DNA of 32,000 bases from Patescibacteria group bacterium (GCA_028713575.1 JAQTOB010000004.1:30001-62000); one strand, 5' to 3'. Counted from the first letter of the stretch, positions 19,053 to 30,094 are shown. Notes: generated by a model not told the origin, from the sequence alone. Translations and numbers: made by a program.

Positions 19053-19409
19053 ATGAAAACAAGTAGTTTTAAAGAAAATTTAAAAAAGAAAATGGATGAA
19101 TATGTTCATTTTGTTTATAAAATTACTCTTAATTTTCCTAAAGCGGAAATATATGGAACTGTTTCTCAATTAAGAAGGGCGTCTTTGTCGGTGGTTTTAA
19201 ATTATATAGAAGGATTTGCCAGAAGAAAGAGACTTGTTCAATTGAATTTTTTAGAAATTTCTTACGGGTCGTTAAAAGAATCAAAATATCTTTTACATTT
19301 TGCTTTGATTGAAAATTATTTGGACACAAAAGACTATAAAATTGCTTTAAAAATGGCAGAAGAAATCGGAGCTATGCTTTGGACAGAAATATCTAATTTA
19401 GATAAATAA
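19053..19409 (+). CDS. Four-helix-bundle protein (23S rRNA intervening-sequence protein family)
   Basis: 118 aa. The motif SQLRRASLSVVLNYIEGFARR and the later SLKESKYLLHFA are typical of this family. Confidence 0.7.
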   Translation: MKTSSFKENLKKKMDEYVHFVYKITLNFPKAEIYGTVSQLRRASLSVVLNYIEGFARRKRLVQLNFLEISYGSLKESKYLLHFALIENYLDTKDYKIALKMAEEIGAMLWTEISNLDK

Positions 19410-20550: not shown

Positions 20551-20675
20551 AATTTGGAGCCGCCAGTTGGCGGGGAACAAATTTTAGAAACAAAACCTTT
20601 ACCCCGCCCCCATTTTTTCTAAATTTTCTATAATATCCGACTATGTAGTATTATGTATATGTTCTACAAGATAAA

Positions 20676-20879
20676 TTGACAAAAGAGATATACATTGGTT
20701 ATAGCGAAAATTTAATTTCTAGAGCCAAAGACCACCAAAAGCAAAATAAAAATTGGGTACTTGTCTACTACGAAGCTTATCAATCAGAAAAAGCTGTTCA
20801 AGAAAGAGAAAAAAGATTGAAATATTATGGTACCTCGCTTTCTAATTTAAAACGTCGTATTAAAGATTGCTTTTTCTGA
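20676..20879 (+). CDS. Small GIY-YIG nuclease-domain protein; start unresolved and possibly a pseudogene
   Basis: EIYIGYSENLISRAKDH followed by WVLVYYEAYQSEKAVQEREKRLK is the GIY-YIG/URI fold. The conserved first strand YYVYVL is encoded in frame upstream (20649-20666), but between it and the only upstream ATG (20643) lies a TAG (20646). Confidence 0.6.
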   Translation: MTKEIYIGYSENLISRAKDHQKQNKNWVLVYYEAYQSEKAVQEREKRLKYYGTSLSNLKRRIKDCFF

Positions 20880-22500: not shown

Positions 22501-25500
22501 ATGAAAATCAAAAACAAAATTTTTAGGAGGGTGAAACAAAAAATCACAAAAATTATTTTTGTTTTTTTAATGGTCGCGACGATGACGGGGAGTTTAACTA
22601 ACATTGCTCAAGCTTATTTATTAGACGCGGTTGATTTGTTAGGACAAATGGACACTTTAGACGAACCGATTTATACGCGAAGCACGCAAAACAATCCTTA
22701 TAGTACCATAGTCAGCAATGCGGTTTTCAACGGCGCGGAAGATGTGAAAATTGATACAGTTCATCACCGTTTATTCGTCGCCGACCGCAGTAACAATAGG
22801 GTTTTAGTTTATGATTTGGACGAAAATAATCAATTTGAACATTATGCCGCTGATTATGTTTTGGGTCAGCCGGATTTTACCACGGTCAGCGCCGGCACCA
22901 CGCAGAGCAAATTCAACGCTTCAAGATATATCGCCTATGATTCCAATCATCAGCGTTTGTTTGTTTCCGAAGAAGAAAATAAACGGGTAACGGTCTTTGA
23001 TTTATCCGAAGGAGTTACCACTGGTATGGACGCTTCTTATGTTCTTGGTCAGCCGGATTTCACCACCAGCGACACTACCACCACTTTATTTGGTTTTGAT
23101 TATTGTTGGGGACTGGCTTATGACTTAGATAATGATTATTTGTATGTGGCTGACGGATCTTCCCATAATCGTATTTTAATTTTTGATGTTGCCCCCGAAG
23201 AAATGTATAACTATAAACCGGCCTTTGCTCATTTGGGCTCTTTGATCGGCACTGCTTTGGACGATTCTCATTTTGAGGGTCCCCATGGCTTGGTTTTGGA
23301 CAAGACCAATGATATTTTATATGCGACCGACACCGACCATCATAGAATAATGATTTTTGATACAGAAGAAATTATCAATGGAGAAAGCGCGATTAATGTC
23401 CTTGGTCAATTAAATTTTACTTCAGATAGCACCAGCACTAGCAGCGTGGGTATGAATTACCCTTATAATGTTGATTTTGATGGAGTTGATGAGCGTTTAT
23501 TTGTTGCTGACGCTACCAATCATCGCGTAATGGTTTTTGACGTTTCTGGGGGAGTGACAGATGGCATGGAAGCCTCTTATGTTTTGGGTCAGATTGATTT
23601 TGACGCCAACAGTTCTGGCGCGACCCAATCTAAATTTAATAAGCCTCGCGGCGTGGCCTATAATTCCGTTACCAAAGAATTATATGTCGGCGATTCAGGC
23701 AATAATCGGATAATGGTTTTTGATTTATCCCAAGGTATTACTAACGGCATGAACGCTTCCAAACTTTTAGGACATACCACGCGCGGCGGCGTGCCGAATT
23801 GGACTTTTACCACTGCCAATCAAATGGGAGCACCTATTGACGACATCGGTTTGCACACGCCCGATAAAGTCCATTTTGATTCTGTCGGGCACCGTTTGTT
23901 CCAATCAGACCAGAACAATAGCCGTATCTTGGTTTATAATTTGGATGAAAATAATAATTTAATTGACCATGTTGCGGATTATGTGATTGGCAGAGATGAT
24001 TTTTTTACCGGCGGCTCGGACAATACCGGTGGCGGTCAAGCCGCTTTTAAATGGCAACATAATTCAATTCTTGATTCCGGGCGTCAGCGTTTATTCGTTT
24101 CTGATTCTTATAATAACCGGATTATGGTTTTTGACATTTCCGAAGGCATCGCCAACGGCATGAATGCGGCTTATGTTCTTGGTCAACCGGATTTTACTTC
24201 TTATGATGCGATTACTACCATTAGTGGCGTTAACGGGCCTCGCGGTTTTGCTTTTGATTCAAGCACTGACCGTTTATTTGTTGCCGACCGCAATAATCAT
24301 CGGGTTTTGGTTTATGATGTGGCGGAAATTGAAACCGGCGAAGACGCAATCAATGTTTTGGGCCAGTCCGACTTCACTAGCAACTCCGCAACCACTAGTA
24401 TCAGTGGCATGGACTATCCTTATGATTTAGCTTTGGACCAAACCAATCAACGTTTATTTGTTATTGACAAGAACAACAACCGAGTGGTTGTTTATGATGT
24501 GGCGGAAATTACTAACGGCGAAGACGCGGTGGCGGTTCTGGGTCAAGCTGATTTTAATTCTAAAATTGATACCGTTGAAGATGTTGAACAAAGGATTCAA
24601 ACCCAAGATAGATTATTTAACACCAGGGGAGTGGCTTATGATTCGGTTAATAATTGGTTATTTGTCGTGGAATACGCCGGTCATCGGGTAATGGTATTTG
24701 ATGTCACGGAAATTGAAAACGGCGAGCCGGCAATCAATGTTTTAGGAGACGAAACTTTTAATACGACTCTTTTGGAAACAATTGATGCCAATGAAAATAC
24801 GAATCGGGTCGCGACTGCCAGCAATTTTTGGACGCCCGAGACAGCGGAAATAGACGGAACCAATAGAAAATTATATGTTAGCGACCAAAATCATAACCGG
24901 ACCATGATTTTCCAATTGCCCAAAATTACGACTGCTTCATTAAGTAATGGCACTGTAGGCGAAGTTTATAGTCAAACAATTTCCGGTACTGGCGGCGCTG
25001 AGCCCTATGTTTGTTCTTTGGTCTCAGGCACTTTGCCCACTGGTTTATCCTTAAACGCTAATTGCACTATTACCGGCGCGCCATCAGCGGCCGGAACAGC
25101 CAATAATCTTGTTATTCGTTTTTCTGACAGTTCAATTACTTCGCCGGAAACAGTCGGCTTATGGCACAACAAAACTTTTAGTTTAACTGTTGACGAGTCT
25201 TTGGCTAACATTAAAATTTCAGCCAAAGCCGAATTAACCGCGGCCTTGGCGACTTATAATCAGGAGGATTACACCGAAGAAAACTGGACAGGTCTAAATA
25301 CTTATAAAACCGATGGCGACACAGCTATTGATGATGCCGAAGATACAGCCGGAGTTACAACAGCTAAAAATACGGCTATCAATGGAATGGCCGGAGTGGA
25401 AACCATTGCTCAAACACTTAAAACAATTACTGCTTTTTCTGTTCCTAATCAAGTTGGCGCGTCAACGATTAATCAAACCGACAAGACAATCAAATTAGTG

Positions 25501-27243
25501 GTTCCGTTTGGCACAGATGTTACTGACCTTGTGGCGTCTTTTACTACTACTGGCGCCTTGGTTAAAGTTAGCGGAGCAACACAAACCAGCGGTCAAACCG
25601 CTAATGATTTCACAAATTCTTTAATTTATACTGTTTCCGCCGTCAATGAGACAACACAGAATTATACGGTTAGTGTCACGGTCTTGACTAATACGCAAAC
25701 CGCCATAGATGATGAGGGCGCTGTTACCATTGATAACAGCACGCCTCAGGCGGTTATTATTAATCCAACTCAGGCAGTCACTGTTGATATTGCCGAAGAC
25801 ACGGAAGGCCCGAGCATTGATGTTAGTTCATTTATTAGTGCCGGAACAGGAACCATTCCTCAAATTACTATTACAGCCGCGAACGCGAATAATGTTAATG
25901 TAGCCATTCCCGCCTCCACCACTGTGACCAGTGCTGATTCGGCTTGGGATGGAGTAATTGCCGCGCCAGTCGTGACCACGGTCACTTTGCCCAATACTTC
26001 AGGAGAAATGAAAACATTAAGCACAGCCATTGAAGTCGGATTCTCCGGTGCCAAATTATCTTTTGATAAGGCGGTTAGGCTATTATTGCCGAACCAAGCG
26101 GGGAAAAGAGTAGGTTACATTAGAACAGGAATTGATTTTACGGAAATAACTTCGGTTTGTGACGCAGACAGCCAAGCGGTTGGCGACCTCTTGTCCGCTG
26201 ACGGTGAATGTAAAAAAGATGTGGGCAATGATTTAGTTGTCTGGACAAAACATTTTACTTCCTTTGCCACTTTTAGCGCGGTTCCTTTGTCTAGTGGCGG
26301 AGGAGGCGGCAGCGCTCCTGTTTTAGTGGGCCCCTCTGATTTAAGTTTAAAAATAAATAATGATGCATTGGAAACTTTTTCAAGAAATGTTGTTTTAAAT
26401 ATTAATGCCGCTAATGCCACGGAAATGTTAGTCGGCGATACTGTTGATTTTGCCAATGTTGATTGGGAAGAGTATGCGAGTTTGAAAAATTGGACCTTAA
26501 CTTCTGGCAATGGAGAAAAAATAATTTATATTAAATTTAGAGACAGCAGTCACAATGAATCTTCTGTAGTTTCCGACACGATTATATTAGAAGAAGAAAT
26601 AGTTGCGGTTGGCGAGGGAAGCTTGGTTAAAACTGCTGATTCTACTGCTTTGTATTTGATTCTTAATGCCAAGCGTCATGTTTTTCCGCACTTGGCCGTT
26701 TATCATTCCTGGTCTTATCCAAATGATTTTTCCACTGTTAAAACAATTACTACTGTTGAATTAAATCAATATCCGGAAGGCGATGCCGTTCCTTTCCGCG
26801 ACGGCTCAATGTTCAGGGGCACGACCCAATCCTTGTATGGTAAATCCGCTTCTGCTGTTTTTTATGTAGAAGACGGGAAATTAAGAGCAGTTAAATCAGG
26901 AGAAATTTATCAGACACTTTTTAATGACCCGAATTGGTCATTAGTCACTTGGGTTCCGGACGACTTGTTGGCCAAGTTTAATTATGAATTGTCTAATGAT
27001 TTAGATTCGTCAGATATCCATCCCAATGGTTCTTTGGTTAAATACCCTGATGCTCCTGCGGTTTACCTGATTAAAAATGGCAAAAAGCAACCCTTTTCTT
27101 CTTGGGACATTTTCGTCGCTAACGGTTATAGTCAAAGGAAGATTTTTGTCATTTCGGCTGAAGAGACCTATGAAACAGCAGAAATAATCAGCAGTTTAGC
27201 CGAATCCCTGACTACGCCAGTCATTGCTGCGATGTATCAATAG
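22501..27243 (+). CDS. Giant secreted surface protein: 12 NHL-type beta-propeller blades, Ig-like and other beta-sandwich domains, and a C-terminal ~190-aa domain shared with the S-layer-like protein
   Basis: 1580 aa with a signal peptide (..VATMTGSLTNIAQA). There are 12 repeats of the pattern hRLFVxDxxNNRvhVaDh followed by YVLGQPDFTS. A cadherin/Ig-like segment (GTVGEVYSQTISGTGGAEPYVCSLVSGTLPTGLSL) follows, then further beta-sandwich-like segments and a Gly linker (SSGGGGGS). Confidence 0.85.
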   Translation: MKIKNKIFRRVKQKITKIIFVFLMVATMTGSLTNIAQAYLLDAVDLLGQMDTLDEPIYTRSTQNNPYSTIVSNAVFNGAEDVKIDTVHHRLFVADRSNNRVLVYDLDENNQFEHYAADYVLGQPDFTTVSAGTTQSKFNASRYIAYDSNHQRLFVSEEENKRVTVFDLSEGVTTGMDASYVLGQPDFTTSDTTTTLFGFDYCWGLAYDLDNDYLYVADGSSHNRILIFDVAPEEMYNYKPAFAHLGSLIGTALDDSHFEGPHGLVLDKTNDILYATDTDHHRIMIFDTEEIINGESAINVLGQLNFTSDSTSTSSVGMNYPYNVDFDGVDERLFVADATNHRVMVFDVSGGVTDGMEASYVLGQIDFDANSSGATQSKFNKPRGVAYNSVTKELYVGDSGNNRIMVFDLSQGITNGMNASKLLGHTTRGGVPNWTFTTANQMGAPIDDIGLHTPDKVHFDSVGHRLFQSDQNNSRILVYNLDENNNLIDHVADYVIGRDDFFTGGSDNTGGGQAAFKWQHNSILDSGRQRLFVSDSYNNRIMVFDISEGIANGMNAAYVLGQPDFTSYDAITTISGVNGPRGFAFDSSTDRLFVADRNNHRVLVYDVAEIETGEDAINVLGQSDFTSNSATTSISGMDYPYDLALDQTNQRLFVIDKNNNRVVVYDVAEITNGEDAVAVLGQADFNSKIDTVEDVEQRIQTQDRLFNTRGVAYDSVNNWLFVVEYAGHRVMVFDVTEIENGEPAINVLGDETFNTTLLETIDANENTNRVATASNFWTPETAEIDGTNRKLYVSDQNHNRTMIFQLPKITTASLSNGTVGEVYSQTISGTGGAEPYVCSLVSGTLPTGLSLNANCTITGAPSAAGTANNLVIRFSDSSITSPETVGLWHNKTFSLTVDESLANIKISAKAELTAALATYNQEDYTEENWTGLNTYKTDGDTAIDDAEDTAGVTTAKNTAINGMAGVETIAQTLKTITAFSVPNQVGASTINQTDKTIKLVVPFGTDVTDLVASFTTTGALVKVSGATQTSGQTANDFTNSLIYTVSAVNETTQNYTVSVTVLTNTQTAIDDEGAVTIDNSTPQAVIINPTQAVTVDIAEDTEGPSIDVSSFISAGTGTIPQITITAANANNVNVAIPASTTVTSADSAWDGVIAAPVVTTVTLPNTSGEMKTLSTAIEVGFSGAKLSFDKAVRLLLPNQAGKRVGYIRTGIDFTEITSVCDADSQAVGDLLSADGECKKDVGNDLVVWTKHFTSFATFSAVPLSSGGGGGSAPVLVGPSDLSLKINNDALETFSRNVVLNINAANATEMLVGDTVDFANVDWEEYASLKNWTLTSGNGEKIIYIKFRDSSHNESSVVSDTIILEEEIVAVGEGSLVKTADSTALYLILNAKRHVFPHLAVYHSWSYPNDFSTVKTITTVELNQYPEGDAVPFRDGSMFRGTTQSLYGKSASAVFYVEDGKLRAVKSGEIYQTLFNDPNWSLVTWVPDDLLAKFNYELSNDLDSSDIHPNGSLVKYPDAPAVYLIKNGKKQPFSSWDIFVANGYSQRKIFVISAEETYETAEIISSLAESLTTPVIAAMYQ

Positions 27244-27264
27244 AATTAAGCCGAAATTCGGTTT

Positions 27265-27840
27265 AAATAAAGAAAAGTCCTCCTATTTTTGAGGGGGTCT
27301 TTTCTTTGTTTTGAGACTCGGTTTCCCGTTGGAAACCGAGTCTCTTCACTTCTTGGTTGTTTTGAGACTCGGTTTCCCGTTGGAAACCGAGTCTCTTCAC
27401 TTCTTGGCTTCCTGTTTAAAGTTCGGTTTCCCGCTTTGCTTCGTAGCGAGCTTTGCTCTGCTACTGGGGCTGGAAGCCGAACTTCTTTATTTTATAAAAA
27501 GCCACTTGGTCTTTAAAGTCCTCCTATTTTTGAGGGGGTCTTTTCTTTGTTTTGAGACTCGGTTTCCCGTTGGAAACCGAGTCTCTTCACTTCTTGGCTT
27601 TGATACTTTGGCGCAATCCCTGATTATGCCGGCTATGGCCGATTTAGCGCAATAAAGCTTCTATTATATATACACTTTGTTTTGAGACTCGGTTTCCCGT
27701 TGGAAACCGAGTCTCTTCACTTCTTGGCTTCCTGTTTAAAGTTCGGTTTCCCGCTTTGCTTCGTAGCGAGCTTTGCTCTGCTACTGGGGCTGGAAGCCGA
27801 ACTTCTTTATTTTATAAAAAGCCACTTGGTCTTTAAAGCC
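27265..27840. repeat. Composite repeat block after the giant gene
   Basis: The ~50-bp unit gttttgagactcggtttcccgttggaaaccgagtctcttcacttcttgg occurs four times (27308, 27358, 27548, 27678). The ~110-bp unit cttcctgtttaaagttcggtttccc...gccacttggtctttaaag occurs twice (27407, 27728). The unit tcctcctatttttgagggggtcttttctttg occurs twice (27278, 27518). Confidence 0.95.
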
Positions 27841-27938
27841 TTTTTTATAGGGAGGTTTGACCCCTTCCTCTTGTTATAAATATTATAAATGTTATAATAA
27901 TTTTCTACTATTTTCGTAAAATTTTCGTATTTCGTAGC

Positions 27939-28469
27939 ATGTTCCACCTCAGAGAGAAAATCCTTTTTCATCAAATTAAAAACGGTGACGAACAGGCCTT
28001 CACCGTCTTTTATAATACCTATAAAGACAGAATTTATCGTTTTATTTATTTTAAAGTTTCTGATCGTGAAAAAGTTTATGATTTGGTTTCCGAAGTTTTT
28101 ATTAAAATATATGATTATATTAAAGAGGGGAATGACATTGATAATTTTCAAGCTTTTTTGTATAAAATCGCTCGTAATTTAGTAATAGATTTTTATCGCA
28201 CTAAAAAAGAGGAAATTTCTTTAACTGATGCGCCGGAAACAGTTTCTCCTATCAATTTAGAAAAAGAAGTGGGAGATAAGGTTGCCGTGGAAAACGTCAA
28301 AAGATACCTTAATAAAATTAAACCAGAATACCGCGAAGCGGTTCATCTTCATTTTTTTGAAAATTTTTCTTTTTCCGAGATTGCGGATATTATCAATCAA
28401 TCCGAAGGCAATGTTAGGATTAGGGTTTATCGCGGCATTAAGCAATTAAAAGAGGTTTTAAGGGGTTGA
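27939..28469 (+). CDS. ECF-type RNA polymerase sigma factor (sigma-70 family)
   Basis: 176 aa with region 2 (YKDRIYRFIYFKVSDREKVYDLVSEVFIKIY, FQAFLYKIARNLVIDFYR) and region 4 (EYREAVHLHFFENFSFSEIADIINQSEGNVRIRVYRGIKQLKE). Confidence 0.9.
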   Translation: MFHLREKILFHQIKNGDEQAFTVFYNTYKDRIYRFIYFKVSDREKVYDLVSEVFIKIYDYIKEGNDIDNFQAFLYKIARNLVIDFYRTKKEEISLTDAPETVSPINLEKEVGDKVAVENVKRYLNKIKPEYREAVHLHFFENFSFSEIADIINQSEGNVRIRVYRGIKQLKEVLRG

Positions 28470-28985
28470 ACCCCTTCTATATGTAGGGGTTCAACCCCCT
28501 CCCCAATAATCGCCATCATAAACTTTTTACACAGGAACTTTTTACACATTTTTACACAGGACATTTTTACACAGGTTGAACCTGTGTAAATTTTCATTTG
28601 CATATTTCACAAAACAAATCCAAAATCCAAAACCCAAATTTTCATAATCACTTGGGAACCGAGTTTCTAAAAAGCAAGAAAGCAAGAGATGGATTCTACG
28701 CTAGAAACTCGGTTTCCCGTTGGAAACCGAGTTTCCTTCTCCCCAATAATCGCCATCATAAACTTTTTACACAGGAACTTTTTACACATTTTTATACAGC
28801 ACATTTTTACACAGCACATTTTTATACATTTTTACACAGGTTGAACCTGTGTAAATTTTCATTTGCATATTTCACAAAACAAATCCAAAATCCAAAACCC
28901 AAATTTTCATAATCACTTGGGAACCGAGTTCCTAAAAAGACATTTTTACACAGGTTGAACCTGTGTAAATTTTCATTTGGCATTT
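28462..28985. repeat. Composite repeat block between the sigma and anti-sigma genes
   Basis: GGGGTT-g-AACCCC at 28462-28474 overlaps the sigma stop codon, and GGGGTT-c-AACCCC lies at 28486-28498. A ~170-200-bp unit (ctccccaataatcgccatcataaac ... cacttgggaaccgag) occurs twice (28498, 28738), plus a partial third copy at 28940. The palindrome TTTACACAGGTT-g-AACCTGTGTAAA occurs three times. Confidence 0.95.
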
Positions 28986-29023
28986 AGTCATTTGATATTG
29001 ATTTGACATTTGACATTGGAAAT

Positions 29024-29053
29024 TTGACATTTCACGTTTTAATGGTGTATAAT
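29024..29053 (+). promoter_or_regulatory. Sigma-70-type promoter candidate for the anti-sigma-like gene
   Basis: Consensus hexamers TTGACA (29024-29029) and TATAAT (29048-29053) with an 18-nt spacer, about 60 nt upstream of the ATG at 29117. Confidence 0.4.
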
Positions 29054-29116
29054 TTTTCCCCTTTCTTCGTCTTATTATTTGTCATTTAGCCATCAAATAG
29101 TTAAATCTCAATTTCA

Positions 29117-30094
29117 ATGAAATTTAAAAATTTGACCCGACAATATAATTCAATAAAATTGGATACTGTTTCTGAAGATAAAATTCGGGAACGGGTTTTT
29201 GATTATTTTCAACAAACTCGTCCTGCTACGCCAACAATGAGTTATCATTTTAGTTTGTTTCTTAAACCGGCTTTAATAAGTTTGCTGGTTTTGTTTTTTA
29301 TTTTTACAACTGGTTTTGGAACAATAGCCGTGGCGAAAAAATCCTTGCCCGGTGATTTTTTATATTCTCTTAAAAGAGTTGTGGAAAAAAGTCAAATGTT
29401 TTTGGCTTTTAGTTCTTCGCAAAAAGTCGTTTTACGCGCGGAAATTTTAAATAATCGTTTTGATGAAGCCAAGGTTTTGGTTAAGAAAATGGAAACAGGA
29501 GACAAGGAGTCAGAATCAGATTTTAATATCTTGGCCGCGAATTTTAATCAGGAATTAAAAATTTTAAAAGAAGAAATTGGAGAACAAATTTTAGTAGAGG
29601 ATGGGCCTTTTCCGGCTGAGGACTTATTAAACACCGAATTATTGGACCAGGGTTCATTGCCGATTCAAGACCAACGCCAGATGTTTACTGTTTTGCCCAA
29701 TGAAGACATTGAAAGACTCTTGACTGAAACCAGAGAATTGCTGGCTGAAAAAAATATGGCTTTGGCCCTAGCTCGGATTGAGCAAGTAGAAAAAATAGTC
29801 AGCGGTGAAGAAAAAGTAGAACCCCAAGAGGCAGAATCTCAGGAAATAGAACTTCAAGAAATTCAGGAAAATGAAAAGAGGATTTTAGAATCAACAGAAG
29901 AAAATTTTCAATTTCCAGCTCTTCAACCGGCGGAACAATCTCCGAATTCCGAATTGCTTGAAACCCAATCCTTGAATTCCCAATTACCCAATTTAGGTTC
30001 AACAGGAAATCTTTCAAAAGAAAAACAAGATGATTTTAAAGTTAAAATAGAAAAGGATTCTTCAGCGCAAACCAGTATGATTCGGGAAGAGTAG
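29117..30094 (+). CDS. DUF5667-type single-pass membrane protein (anti-sigma-factor-like)
   Basis: 325 aa with a short cytoplasmic N-terminus, a TM (ALISLLVLFFIFTTGFGTIAVA), the motif LPGDFLYSLKRVVEKSQMFL typical of DUF5667, and an acidic low-complexity tail. It lies downstream of an ECF sigma gene. Confidence 0.65.
   Translation: MKFKNLTRQYNSIKLDTVSEDKIRERVFDYFQQTRPATPTMSYHFSLFLKPALISLLVLFFIFTTGFGTIAVAKKSLPGDFLYSLKRVVEKSQMFLAFSSSQKVVLRAEILNNRFDEAKVLVKKMETGDKESESDFNILAANFNQELKILKEEIGEQILVEDGPFPAEDLLNTELLDQGSLPIQDQRQMFTVLPNEDIERLLTETRELLAEKNMALALARIEQVEKIVSGEEKVEPQEAESQEIELQEIQENEKRILESTEENFQFPALQPAEQSPNSELLETQSLNSQLPNLGSTGNLSKEKQDDFKVKIEKDSSAQTSMIREE

What the first reader, a model, noticed from the sequence alone, without database searches (positions are those of the whole stretch)
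27244..27900. A 650-bp mosaic of three interleaved repeat units after the giant gene
The order is U3-U1-U1-U2-U3-U1-unique-U1-U2. U1 is the 14-bp-arm palindrome GAGACTCGGTTTCC-cgtt-GGAAACCGAGTCTC with fixed flanks. U2 is a ~110-bp unit containing a long imperfect hairpin, GTTCGGTTTCC (27421-27431) with GGAAGCCGAAC (27471-27481). U3 is tcctcctatttttgagggggtcttttctttg. A U1 variant (GAAACTCGGTTTCC-cgtt-GGAAACCGAGTTTC) reappears at 28704-28735 inside the next repeat block, which links the two blocks. The block separates the giant gene from the ECF sigma gene. A small stem, AAGCCGAA-a-TTCGGTTT (27248-27264), directly after the stop may be the actual terminator.
Basis: seen in the sequence. Interest (0 to 1): 0.6.

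Follow-up and report, generated by a model that had tools for sequence, protein, structure and literature searches.

The report
Strain-variable cluster of REP-like hairpins
The 650-bp block after the giant gene is a real pile-up of hairpin-forming repeat units of the REP/BIME kind known from other bacteria; their number and order differ between near-identical strains of this ultra-small (Patescibacteria) bacterium, and the block most likely acts as a transcription stop and insulator, so it is a fairly ordinary thing in an unusual lineage.

Summary
The order is U3-U1-U1-U2-U3-U1-X-U1-U2, and all copies are 100% identical. In this 692-kb genome the units occur only at this locus.

- **Not an assembly invention.** Three independent assemblies of about 99%-identical strains carry the same units in other orders: A-B-B-B-X-B-C, and A-B-B-C twice. 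Only the U2-to-U3 junction is private to this genome.
- **U1 is an inverted doublet.** Each 14-nt arm is itself a 5-bp stem with a 3-nt loop. Eight relatives keep the hairpin through compensatory changes.
- **U1-shaped families occur elsewhere in the class.** They are multi-copy. In two genomes they sit in frame inside a RAYT-like transposase gene, and one of those genes also has a copy just after its stop. They also sit in frame in housekeeping genes, as published for REPs.
- **U2 is a U1-type hairpin with a nested insert.** The 37-nt insert belongs to a second hairpin family found in 36 of 151 class genomes.
- **U3 is an intrinsic terminator.**
- **The "unique" stretch** holds a fossil of the giant gene's last codons.

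Best reading: a BIME-like, recombination-prone cluster of REP-like palindromes that acts as a terminator and insulator. No RAYT cognate to U1 was found here. The scan had already noted this stretch and a nearby RAYT/palindrome unit.

The parts
27248..27264 (+). Small stem AAGCCGAA-a-TTCGGTTT directly after the giant gene's stop. It resembles the base of the U2 outer stem.
   Evidence: -8.7 kcal/mol. No T-run follows, and the terminator scan does not flag it.
27265..27312 (+). U3 copy 1 with its flanking A- and T-tracts. It looks like an intrinsic, possibly bidirectional, terminator.
   Evidence: Terminator scan hit at 27279-27297 followed by TCTTTTCTTT. Fold energy -22.3 kcal/mol, z = -5.8.
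27306..27356 (+). U1 copy 1: a 51-nt unit with the 32-nt palindrome at 27313-27344.
27357..27407 (+). U1 copy 2, in tandem with copy 1.
27408..27518 (+). U2 copy 1: a U1-like outer hairpin (pairs from about 27419 to 27484) followed by a T-rich tail.
   Evidence: Fold energy -39 kcal/mol on the + strand against -33.2 on the - strand. The outer shell aligns to U1.
27434..27470 (+). Nested 37-nt element inside U2 copy 1. It belongs to the dispersed hairpin family CCCCGTAGTGAGC-TTT-GCTCTACTACTGGGG.
   Evidence: The covariance-model hit is at C4:57433-57471.
27515..27549 (+). U3 copy 2.
27547..27597 (+). U1 copy 3.
27598..27676 (+). Unique segment X. Positions 27608-27655 are a fossil of the giant gene's last 15 codons plus the stop.
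   Evidence: 30 of 48 bases match 27196-27243 without gaps. This is the best 48-mer match in the whole genome; the next best are 29 and 28. X is also present in L188 and absent in L189 and L190.
27677..27727 (+). U1 copy 4.
27728..27838 (+). U2 copy 2, with the nested element at 27754-27790.
27857..27898 (+). Promoter-like sites for the ECF sigma gene, downstream of the mosaic.
   Evidence: TTGACC-18-TATTAT and TTGTTA-16-(TG)TATAAT.
28704..28735 (+). U1' variant GAAACTCGGTTTCC-cgtt-GGAAACCGAGTTTC in the sigma/DUF5667 spacer. The G-C pair has become A-T on both arms.
   Evidence: Its copy number varies between strains, 1 or 2.

Best explanation
The block is a BIME-like cluster of REP-like palindromic elements in the 3' intergenic region of the giant NHL-repeat gene.

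**Anatomy (shown).**
- U1 is an inverted doublet of a 13-nt mini-palindrome, [GARAC-NNN-GYYTC]-C-CGTT-G-[inverted copy]. This is REPIN-shaped.
- U2 is a diverged U1-type hairpin whose loop received a 37-nt member of a second hairpin family that is widespread in the class.
- U3 is an ordinary intrinsic terminator.
- The units are identical in sequence, and their number and order differ between strains that are about 99% identical.

**Origin (inferred).**
- The palindromes entered as selfish, RAYT-type or REP-type mobile hairpins, or as copies of them.
- The array then grew and shrank by unequal recombination or slippage between the identical units.
- In the process a fossil of an older gene end was stranded inside the array.

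**Function (inferred).**
- The array is transcribed as the 3' UTR of the giant gene.
- It stops transcription at U3 and U2.
- The U1 stems protect the 3' end of the mRNA.
- Together they insulate the ECF sigma gene, which has its own promoter just downstream.
For: **The units are real, and their number and order vary between strains.**
- Window: a-A-B-B-C-A-B-X-B-C-z.
- L188 (JGI, 98.8-kb contig): a-A-B-B-B-X-B-C-z.
- L189 (ENA) and L190 (JGI): a-A-B-B-C-z.
- All four carry the identical sigma protein and are 98.5-99.7% identical in flanking DNA.
- Both window copies of U2 share four private substitutions, which points to a recent duplication or conversion.

**U1 is kept as a hairpin.**
- Among 8 distinct relatives, 99.1% of cells are paired and 5 of 14 pairs show changes on both sides.
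- Three U.G pairs occur only on the CGTT strand.
- The orthologous sigma locus of a congener, G002, has U1 variants both upstream and downstream of sigma: GAGACT(C/T)AGCCTCC-CGTT-GGAGGCTGAGTCTC.
- G014 has one directly after the DUF5667 gene of the orthologous operon.

**U1 has doublet symmetry.** In 21 of 21 variants each arm is itself a 5-bp stem with a 3-nt loop (15 at 5/5 pairs, 6 at 4/5). Random 14-mers reach 5/5 in only 0.6% of cases.

**U1-shaped palindromes behave like REPs elsewhere in the class.**
- A covariance model of U1 finds multi-copy families of the same shape in 13 of 151 class genomes, the window's own included.
- In G093 the family sits in frame inside a RAYT-like gene and again just after its stop. 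G091 has a doublet of the same shape in frame in a RAYT-like gene.
- 10 of 16 copies examined lie inside long ORFs. Nine of those ORFs have Pfam assignments: NusA, IscS-like, ProRS-like, SMC, UvrB, RecG, pyruvate kinase, UvrC and an LTD protein. Published REPs do the same in repair genes and tRNA synthetase genes (PMC3733652).

**The host genome is rich in such elements.**
- It has 90 long perfect palindromes against 6 expected.
- It has five Y1/HUH RAYT-like genes, at least two of them flanked by their own palindromes.
- 0 of 38 members of six palindrome families, U1 included, lie in ORFs, although ORFs cover 82.5% of the genome.

**Terminator role.**
- U3 is flagged by the terminator scan.
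- In sister strains U2 is followed by TTTTTTTATTTT.
- REPs act as 3'-UTR terminators and mRNA stabilisers in E. coli (bioRxiv 10.64898/2026.03.23.713779).
Against: - None of the five RAYT-like genes of this genome carries or is flanked by U1. The same holds for those of G002, G014 and G017.
- In this genome U1 is confined to one locus, with 5 copies, rather than dispersed.
- All five copies have the same orientation, unlike classical BIMEs.
- U1 has no unpaired GTAG or CGTC tag.
- The U1-shaped families in other genomes were found with a model built from U1. Similar shape may therefore reflect convergence rather than common descent.
- There are no expression data, so the terminator and stabiliser role rests on sequence features and analogy.
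- U1 itself lacks a T-run.
- The C-to-A junction, and hence the exact copy number here, is unverified.
Confidence: 0.6

Rival explanations
1. The unit order and copy number are assembly artefacts. The true locus is the simple form A-B-B-C, and the extra C-A-B-X-B loop is a mis-resolved path through repeats longer than the read or k-mer length.
For: - All copies are 100% identical, and the 162-nt repeat exceeds common k-mer sizes.
- Two independent assemblies give the short form.
- The orthologous spacer in G002 contains a 100-N scaffold gap flanked by duplicated sequence.
- Reads could not be consulted.
Against: - The B/X and X/B junctions, and X itself, are present in an independent 98.8-kb contig (L188), so X is real DNA.
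- An assembler cannot invent the C/A junction sequence; it must occur in reads.
- The window's two C copies carry private substitutions that the other strains lack, so the window is not a chimera of those strains.
Confidence: 0.12
2. U1 is a cis-regulatory site of the ECF sigma / DUF5667 module. It would be an operator for a dimeric DNA-binding protein, or an attenuator in the RNA. That would explain why copies flank the sigma gene and co-vary within each genome.
For: - U1-type hairpins lie both upstream and downstream of the orthologous sigma gene in G000 and G002. The two copies within each genome share the same inner-stem sequence.
- G014 has one at the end of the same operon.
- G010 has a different palindrome family on both sides of its sigma gene.
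- A solo 3'-arm-like motif at 28654-28669 can pair with the 5' arm of U1', giving an alternative structure (I20).
Against: - Of the 9 orthologous sigma loci (the window's own and eight relatives), only 3 have U1 (the window's own, G002 and G014); in the other six U1 was not found, and several of them carry unrelated palindromes.
- U1-type elements also occur in SecA, between unrelated convergent genes, and inside housekeeping genes of other genomes.
- The element contains no convincing ECF -35/-10 motif on inspection.
- Copy number varies from 2 to 4 between strains that have an identical sigma protein.
Confidence: 0.1
3. The hairpins are attC-like recombination sites of the integron-like cassette systems that other notes of this scan report in Patescibacteria. 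The fossil gene end would record a cassette or allele replacement.
For: - The U2 core has two single-base bulges on one strand, like folded attC sites.
- A fossil of an older gene end lies between U1 copies.
- Earlier notes report integron-like arrays in this genome and in other CPR genomes. These are unchecked leads.
Against: - There are no RYYYAAC / GTTRRRY boxes in attC arrangement.
- U1 copies are tandem, with no cassette ORF between them.
- No tyrosine recombinase was found among the Pfam-scanned ORFs between 11382 and 31999; the short ORFs were not all scanned.
- The strain differences are fully explained by homologous recombination between identical units.
Confidence: 0.05
4. U2, or the U1 pairs, are genes for small structured RNAs with a function in trans.
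For: - Strong folds, better on the + strand.
- The U2 core is conserved across 36 of 151 class genomes, the window's own included, with compensatory changes in its tip.
Against: - No Rfam family reaches its threshold.
- There is no good promoter in front of the units; only weak 9/12 matches.
- Elsewhere the U2 core is a bare hairpin of about 35 nt in varied contexts.
- Copy number varies between strains.
Confidence: 0.05

Closest known systems
REP / REPIN elements with RAYT (TnpA-REP) transposases (Bertels & Rainey, PMC3337134; Di Nocera et al., PMC3733652)
   Same: - A short (32-nt) GC-rich palindrome.
- Organised as an inverted doublet.
- Extragenic, and located 3' of a gene.
- The host genome encodes five HUH/Y1 RAYT-like genes with their own flanking palindromes.
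- U1-shaped families in related genomes sit in and next to RAYT-like genes.
- They also occur in frame in repair genes and a tRNA-synthetase-like gene, as published for REPs.
   Different: - No unpaired GTAG or CGTC tag.
- U1 is not dispersed in this genome (one locus only).
- No cognate RAYT for U1 was found in four genomes that carry it.
- The halves are only 13 nt long, so the doublet is as small as a single classical REP.
BIMEs, the bacterial interspersed mosaic elements of E. coli (Gilson et al. 1991, cited in PMC3337134)
   Same: - An extragenic mosaic in which palindromic units are combined with other conserved motifs.
- Variable arrangements at the 3' ends of genes.
- Linked to transcription attenuation.
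   Different: - In classical BIMEs the palindromic units alternate in orientation (from my own knowledge); here all U1 copies point the same way.
- The other motifs here are a terminator and a nested second hairpin, not the S/L/r-type linkers.
- This particular mosaic exists only at one locus.
Rickettsia palindromic elements (RPEs) and intragenic REPs (PMC10969869, PMC3733652)
   Same: U1-shaped palindromes of sister genomes are inserted in frame in essential genes (NusA, UvrB, UvrC, RecG, SMC, pyruvate kinase, SecA) without breaking them.
   Different: - RPE-1 elements are about 150 bp long and encode a conserved peptide; these elements add only about 11-12 residues.
- In this window's genome the U1 copies are all extragenic.
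Rho-independent (intrinsic) terminators
   Same: - U3 has a GC stem and a T-run.
- U2 has a long stem and a T-rich tail, which is a clean T7 run in sister strains.
- Both lie directly after a long gene and before the next promoter.
   Different: - U1 has no T-run.
- Eight strong hairpins in a row is far more than termination needs.

Membership tests
REP/REPIN-RAYT | A short (20-40 bp) palindromic unit able to form a stem-loop | tested here: met
   U1 is 32 nt with a 14-bp stem, -25.5 kcal/mol, z = -5.3. Pairing is kept by compensatory changes in 8 relatives.
REP/REPIN-RAYT | Many copies dispersed around the genome | tested here: not met
   There are 5 copies, all within 1.4 kb on contig C4 of G000, and none elsewhere. 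U1-shaped families are dispersed and multi-copy in other class genomes, for example 14 and 22 model matches (some sites match on both strands) in G145 and G149.
REP/REPIN-RAYT | Predominantly extragenic and downstream of coding regions | tested here: met
   All 5 copies are intergenic, after the giant gene and after sigma. 0 of 38 members of six palindrome families lie in ORFs, although ORFs cover 82.5% of the genome.
REP/REPIN-RAYT | An unpaired GTAG or CGTC tag at one end (PMC3733652) | tested here: not met
   The U1 flanks are TTGTTTT and TTCACTTC. The U2 core contains GTAG, but it is paired with CTAC inside the stem, so that case is inconclusive.
REP/REPIN-RAYT | A cognate RAYT gene flanked by the same palindrome | tested here: not met
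   The five RAYT-like genes of G000, and those of G002, G014 and G017, carry other palindromes. The feature is met for U1-shaped families in G093, and in G091 for an in-frame copy only.
REP/REPIN-RAYT | Inverted doublet (REPIN) organisation | tested here: met
   Each U1 arm is a 5-bp/3-nt mini-palindrome, so U1 is two inverted mini-hairpins around C-CGTT-G. This holds in 21 of 21 variants.
REP/REPIN-RAYT | Cleavage or mobilisation by the RAYT enzyme | not testable with these tools
   This needs biochemistry with the purified Y1 proteins and single-stranded U1 DNA.
BIME | An extragenic mosaic of palindromic units with other conserved motifs | tested here: met
   The order is A-B-B-C-A-B-X-B-C.
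BIME | Palindromic units in alternating orientation | tested here: not met
   All five U1 copies have the CGTT loop on the + strand.
Intrinsic terminator | A GC-rich stem followed directly by a T-run | tested here: met
   - U3: stem followed by TCTTTTCTTTGTTTT.
- U2: stem followed by CTTCTTTATTTT here and TTTTTTTATTTT in sister strains.
- Not met for U1 or for the small stem at 27248-27264.
Integron attC site | R''/R' core boxes (RYYYAAC ... GTTRRRY), cassette ORFs between sites, and an integrase nearby | tested here: not met
   - No such boxes in attC order, on inspection.
- The U1 copies are tandem, with no ORFs between them.
- No recombinase among the scanned neighbouring ORFs.
Diversity-generating retroelement (TR/VR pair) | Template and variable repeats that differ at adenines of the template | tested here: not met
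   The 18 differences between fossil and gene end are of all kinds, and the match is only 48 nt long.

The most novel reading that the evidence does not exclude
U1 and the U2 core would be two members of an undescribed, class-wide repertoire of mobile hairpins in Patescibacteria.

- One type is a four-fold-symmetric mini-REPIN: a doublet of 13-nt palindromes. In some genomes it is cognate to RAYT-like genes, and it inserts in frame into essential genes (NusA, UvrB, UvrC, RecG, SMC, SecA).
- The other type is a bulged CCCCGTAG...CTACTGGGG hairpin, present in about a quarter of the class.
- The spacers around the ECF sigma gene would be permissive sites where these elements pile up, nest inside one another and recombine. 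That would produce strain-to-strain differences in read-through from a giant surface-protein gene into a sigma factor gene.
Probability: 0.35. Interest if true: 0.6.

Novelty: new member of a known kind. Interest (0 to 1): 0.4.

Why it matters
- Patescibacteria (CPR) have tiny, streamlined genomes and, to my knowledge, are usually described as poor in repeats. A full-text search for Patescibacteria together with RAYT found no relevant paper.
- This locus shows that they carry REP/BIME-type palindromic DNA that is gained, nested and reshuffled on the time scale of strain divergence.
- It also gives a concrete pair of hairpin families that can be followed across the class.
- In practice, such arrays are places where metagenome assemblies break or collapse. 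They may also tune expression of neighbouring genes, here a giant surface protein and an ECF sigma factor, without any change to coding sequence.

Tried and rejected
- **Rfam.** At E <= 1 over 26500-30000 there were only sub-threshold miRNA and leader look-alikes.
- **Exact U1 in JGI metagenome contigs.** No hit. A degenerate pattern gave one real relative (L129) and one chance hit.
- **First degenerate scan of genome contigs.** The pattern had too few fixed bases, so most of the 120 loci were chance matches. After filtering for stem complementarity, only L045, L015 and L110 remained as new family members.
- **U1 as an ECF promoter** (GGAAC...CGT motif). The spacing and the -10 region do not fit, on inspection.
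- **Fossil and gene end as a DGR template/variable repeat pair.** The mismatches are not adenine-specific.
- **attC boxes.** Absent.
- **ORF 27311-27655** (114 codons, open through the repeats and in frame with the fossil). It has no Pfam hit. U1 is stop-free in at least two of its three reading frames, so the open frame is incidental.
- **Link to the GIY-YIG cassettes of this genome.** There are nine genes, but their hairpins are different.
- **tRNA association of the U2 core.** Only occasional.

Full report
**1. What is there.**

The window is contig C4:30001-62000 of a 692-kb, 34% G+C genome in 24 contigs. The public titles of related records that name a taxon are mostly Patescibacteria; the congener's record is labelled Gammaproteobacteria, probably wrongly.

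The gene order around the block is:
- 22501-27243: a 1580-aa NHL-repeat protein.
- 27939-28469: an ECF sigma factor.
- 29117-30094: a DUF5667 protein.
- 30428 onward: a second giant gene.

The spacer 27244-27938 reads a-A-B-B-C-A-B-X-B-C-z. Every copy is identical to its siblings. The longest exact repeats are A+B (83 nt) and B+C (162 nt). None of the units occurs anywhere else in the genome, except the U1 variant at 28704-28735.

**2. It is not an invention of the assembler, and it varies between strains.**

Instead I looked up contigs that encode exactly the same sigma protein. Three independent assemblies came back. They are 98.5-99.7% identical to the window in flanking DNA. Their spacers read:
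- L188 (a 98.8-kb JGI contig): a-A-B-B-B-X-B-C-z, 559 nt.
- L189 (ENA) and L190 (JGI): a-A-B-B-C-z, 378 nt.

All junctions except C-to-A are therefore confirmed independently, and X is real DNA. The three forms differ by events that recombination between identical B or B+C copies would produce.

Both C copies of the window share four substitutions that the single C of the other strains lacks. The duplication, or a conversion, is therefore recent in this lineage. The next spacer, between sigma and DUF5667, varies in the same way and has one or two copies of a 265-nt unit that includes U1'. The exact copy number in this genome remains unverified.

**3. Anatomy of the units.**

- *U3.* This is a textbook intrinsic terminator: stem CCTCC/GGGGG and then TCTTTTCTTTGTTTT. 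It is preceded by an A-tract that lengthens the stem.
- *U1.* It folds into a perfect 14-bp stem with a CGTT loop (-25.5 kcal/mol) and has no T-run.
- *U2.* With 37 central bases (27434-27470) removed, it aligns to U1 over 45 columns (score 42; shuffles 15 +/- 3; 0 of 2000 reach it). U2 is therefore a diverged U1-type hairpin with another element nested in its loop. It folds better on the + strand (-39 against -33.2 kcal/mol), because of G.U pairs. In the sister strains TTTTTTTATTTT follows it, so it too looks like a terminator.
- *The small stem after the stop.* It is weak (-8.7 kcal/mol) and is followed by A-rich sequence, so it is unlikely to be the main terminator.
- *X.* It contains a 48-nt stretch (27608-27655) that matches the last 15 codons and stop of the giant gene at 30 of 48 positions. 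The match has no gaps, is in the same frame and ends in CAA plus a stop. It is the best match to that 48-mer in the whole genome. It is a fossil of an older or foreign gene end.

**4. Relatives of U1.**

A BLAST search of relatives and two pattern scans found eight distinct U1 relatives. The patterns fixed only the outer six bases and CC-CGTT-GG. In all eight the free positions pair: 99.1% of cells are paired and 5 of 14 pairs change on both sides. At least two clear chance hits (L130 and G054) do not pair in this way. Three U.G pairs lie on the CGTT strand only.

Where the relatives sit:
- In the congener G002, variants with a re-written inner stem (CAGCCT/AGGCTG) lie both 339 nt upstream and 15 nt downstream of the orthologous sigma gene.
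- In G014, one lies 7 nt after the DUF5667 gene of the same operon.
- In G017, one lies in frame inside the C-terminal linker of SecA.
- In a Falkowbacteria genome, one lies between convergent genes, after a normal terminator.

Only 4 of 55 genomes of the order have U1. In six of the nine orthologous sigma loci (the window's own and eight relatives) U1 was not found; several of them carry unrelated long palindromes in the same spacers. U1 is therefore not a conserved part of the sigma operon.

**5. U1 is a doublet of a mini-palindrome, and such doublets behave like REPs.**

Each 14-nt arm is itself a 5-bp stem with a 3-nt loop, for example GAAAC-TCG-GTTTC. This holds in 21 of 21 variants, with co-variation among all four pentamers. 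U1 is therefore two inverted mini-hairpins joined by C-CGTT-G. That is the layout of a REPIN (PMC3337134).

A covariance model of U1 finds families of the same shape in 13 of 151 genomes of the class, the window's own included, with up to 22 model matches per genome.
- In G093, the genome's own variant lies in frame inside a RAYT-like gene, between the YHIYNRG and HUH motifs, and again six bases after its stop. G091 has a doublet of the same shape in frame in a RAYT-like gene.
- Of 16 copies examined, 10 lie inside long ORFs. Nine of those ORFs have Pfam assignments: NusA, a class-V aminotransferase, a class-II tRNA synthetase, SMC, UvrB, RecG, pyruvate kinase, UvrC and an LTD protein.

Di Nocera et al. 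describe exactly this for REPs. [quoted passage not shown]

One caution applies. These families were found with a model built from U1, so common shape is shown and common descent is not.

**6. The host genome is full of such elements.**

It has 90 perfect palindromes with arms of at least 11 bp, against 6 in a Markov control. They fall into families: TTTGGAGAC-cwg-GTCTCCAAA, GTTTGGTGGC-tcg-GCCACCAAAC, GCAGGT...ACCTGC, ACACAGGTTGAACCTGTGT and GGGGTTGAACCCC.

Five genes match the Y1 transposase family and have HUH and Y motifs.
- The gene at C4:64567-65277, 6.6 kb downstream of the mosaic, is preceded by its palindrome and contains it in frame.
- Another, at about C4:28000-28661, is flanked by inverted copies of its palindrome.

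None of the five carries U1, and neither do the RAYT-like genes of G002, G014 and G017. Six families, U1 included, have 0 of 38 members inside ORFs, although ORFs cover 82.5% of the genome.

**7. The U2 core.**

The nested element belongs to a family with the consensus (Y)TG-CCCCGTAGTGAGC-TTT-GCTCTACTACTGGGG. It has two bulged T residues, a conserved base and a variable tip that co-varies. A model of it hits 36 of 151 class genomes, the window's own included, with up to 22 copies per genome, and always on one strand. Contexts are varied intergenic sites. Adjacency to a tRNA is only occasional. A third, diverged copy is at C7:522-558 of this genome. Its partner protein, if it has one, is unknown.

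**8. How it most likely works.**

*Shown:*
- The structure of the units.
- Their conservation as hairpins.
- The strain polymorphism.
- The nested insertion.
- The REP-like behaviour of U1-shaped elements in the class.

*Inferred:*
- The array is transcribed behind the giant gene.
- U3 and U2 stop transcription.
- The U1 stems protect the 3' end.
- The sigma gene starts from its own promoter-like sites at 27857-27898.

This is the dual terminator and stabiliser role recently shown for an E. coli REP. The extra copies in this strain are probably neutral products of unequal recombination.

**9. Rivals.**

The rivals considered are an assembly artefact, an operator or attenuator of the sigma module, attC-like recombination sites, and small RNA genes. 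They are weighed in the rival list; none fits as well.

**10. Verdict.**

This is a REP/BIME-type repeat cluster, a known kind of element. It sits in a lineage for which my full-text search found no description, and some of its features are unusual: a minimal four-fold-symmetric doublet, a nested second hairpin, and confinement to one locus.

Earlier notes of this scan had already flagged this same stretch, the fossil and the nearby RAYT/palindrome unit. I had reached the RAYT link and the fossil from the sequence before reading those notes.

Noticed in passing
G000 contigs C4:64567-65277, C4:~28000-28661, C8:8982-9308, C1:55057-55386, C8:1-153 (all outside the window): There are five Y1/HUH RAYT-like genes in a 692-kb genome. 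The gene at C4:64567 contains its palindrome TTTGGAGACCWGGTCTCCAAA in frame twice (FGDQVSK and FGDLVSK). The gene at the C8 contig end carries CTACGAGGT-ctc-GCCTCGTAG in frame.
   Followed up: partly
window 28470-29116: The sigma/DUF5667 spacer is a second mosaic: Q-P-R-U1'-Q-P-R-P. Its 265-nt unit is present once or twice in sister strains (L188 has two U1' copies and an 806-nt spacer).
   Followed up: partly
L203, L193, L208, L194, L209, L198, L205, L199, L196 (genomes G145, G149, G066, G093, G178, G091): U1-shaped doublet palindromes lie in frame inside NusA, a cysteine-desulfurase-like protein, a class-II tRNA synthetase, SMC, UvrB, RecG, pyruvate kinase, UvrC and an LTD protein. Each adds about 11-12 residues, often E-T-x-F-P-x-G-N-x-V-S.
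   Followed up: partly
L015 / L005 (G017, Patescibacteria AH-259-L07), SecA 3' part: The C-terminal linker of SecA is read through three long hairpins without a stop. They are a U1-type doublet, GAAACCCGGTTTC...GAAACCGGGTTTC and a longer one upstream.
   Followed up: no
window 27433-27471 and 27753-27791; L224-L243: The U2 core hairpin family (CCCCGTAG...CTACTGGGG with bulged T residues) occurs in 36 of 151 class genomes, the window's own included, with up to 22 copies. In G097 (L236) one copy is fused to what looks like a tRNA 3' fragment (GGTTCGATCCC...ACCA).
   Followed up: partly
G000 C7:522-558: This is a third, diverged copy of the U2 core in this genome. It is flanked by ATTTTGATTTT direct repeats. 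Several copies in other genomes (L131, L133) also sit between short direct repeats, which could be target duplications or pre-existing tandem repeats.
   Followed up: no
L188 1-2441 against window 22501-27243: In the sister strain the giant gene is called as two ORFs (1274 + 305 aa), where the window has one 1580-aa ORF. This could be a frameshift, a stop or an assembly error.
   Followed up: no
L006 / L045 763-862 (G002, record CAZAGY010000047.1): The orthologous giant-gene/sigma spacer of the congener holds a 100-N gap flanked by duplicated sequence, so this spacer is hard to assemble there too. The record is labelled Gammaproteobacteria, which is probably a mislabel.
   Followed up: no
window 28654-28669 with 28702-28717: A solo 3'-arm-like motif (GGGAACCGAGTTTCTA) is 94% complementary to the 5' arm of U1', 32 nt away. 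It could form a structure that competes with the U1' hairpin.
   Followed up: no
window 28979-29035; L110: Runs of CATTTGACATT-like motifs lie in front of the consensus promoter of the DUF5667 gene. They recur in other contigs of this genome (C8, C6, C7) and in a Falkowbacteria contig.
   Followed up: no
window 19053-19409 and 20649-20822: A 23S-rRNA-IVP / bAvd-like four-helix protein and a small GIY-YIG nuclease gene (one of nine in the genome) lie a few kb upstream of the giant gene.
   Followed up: no
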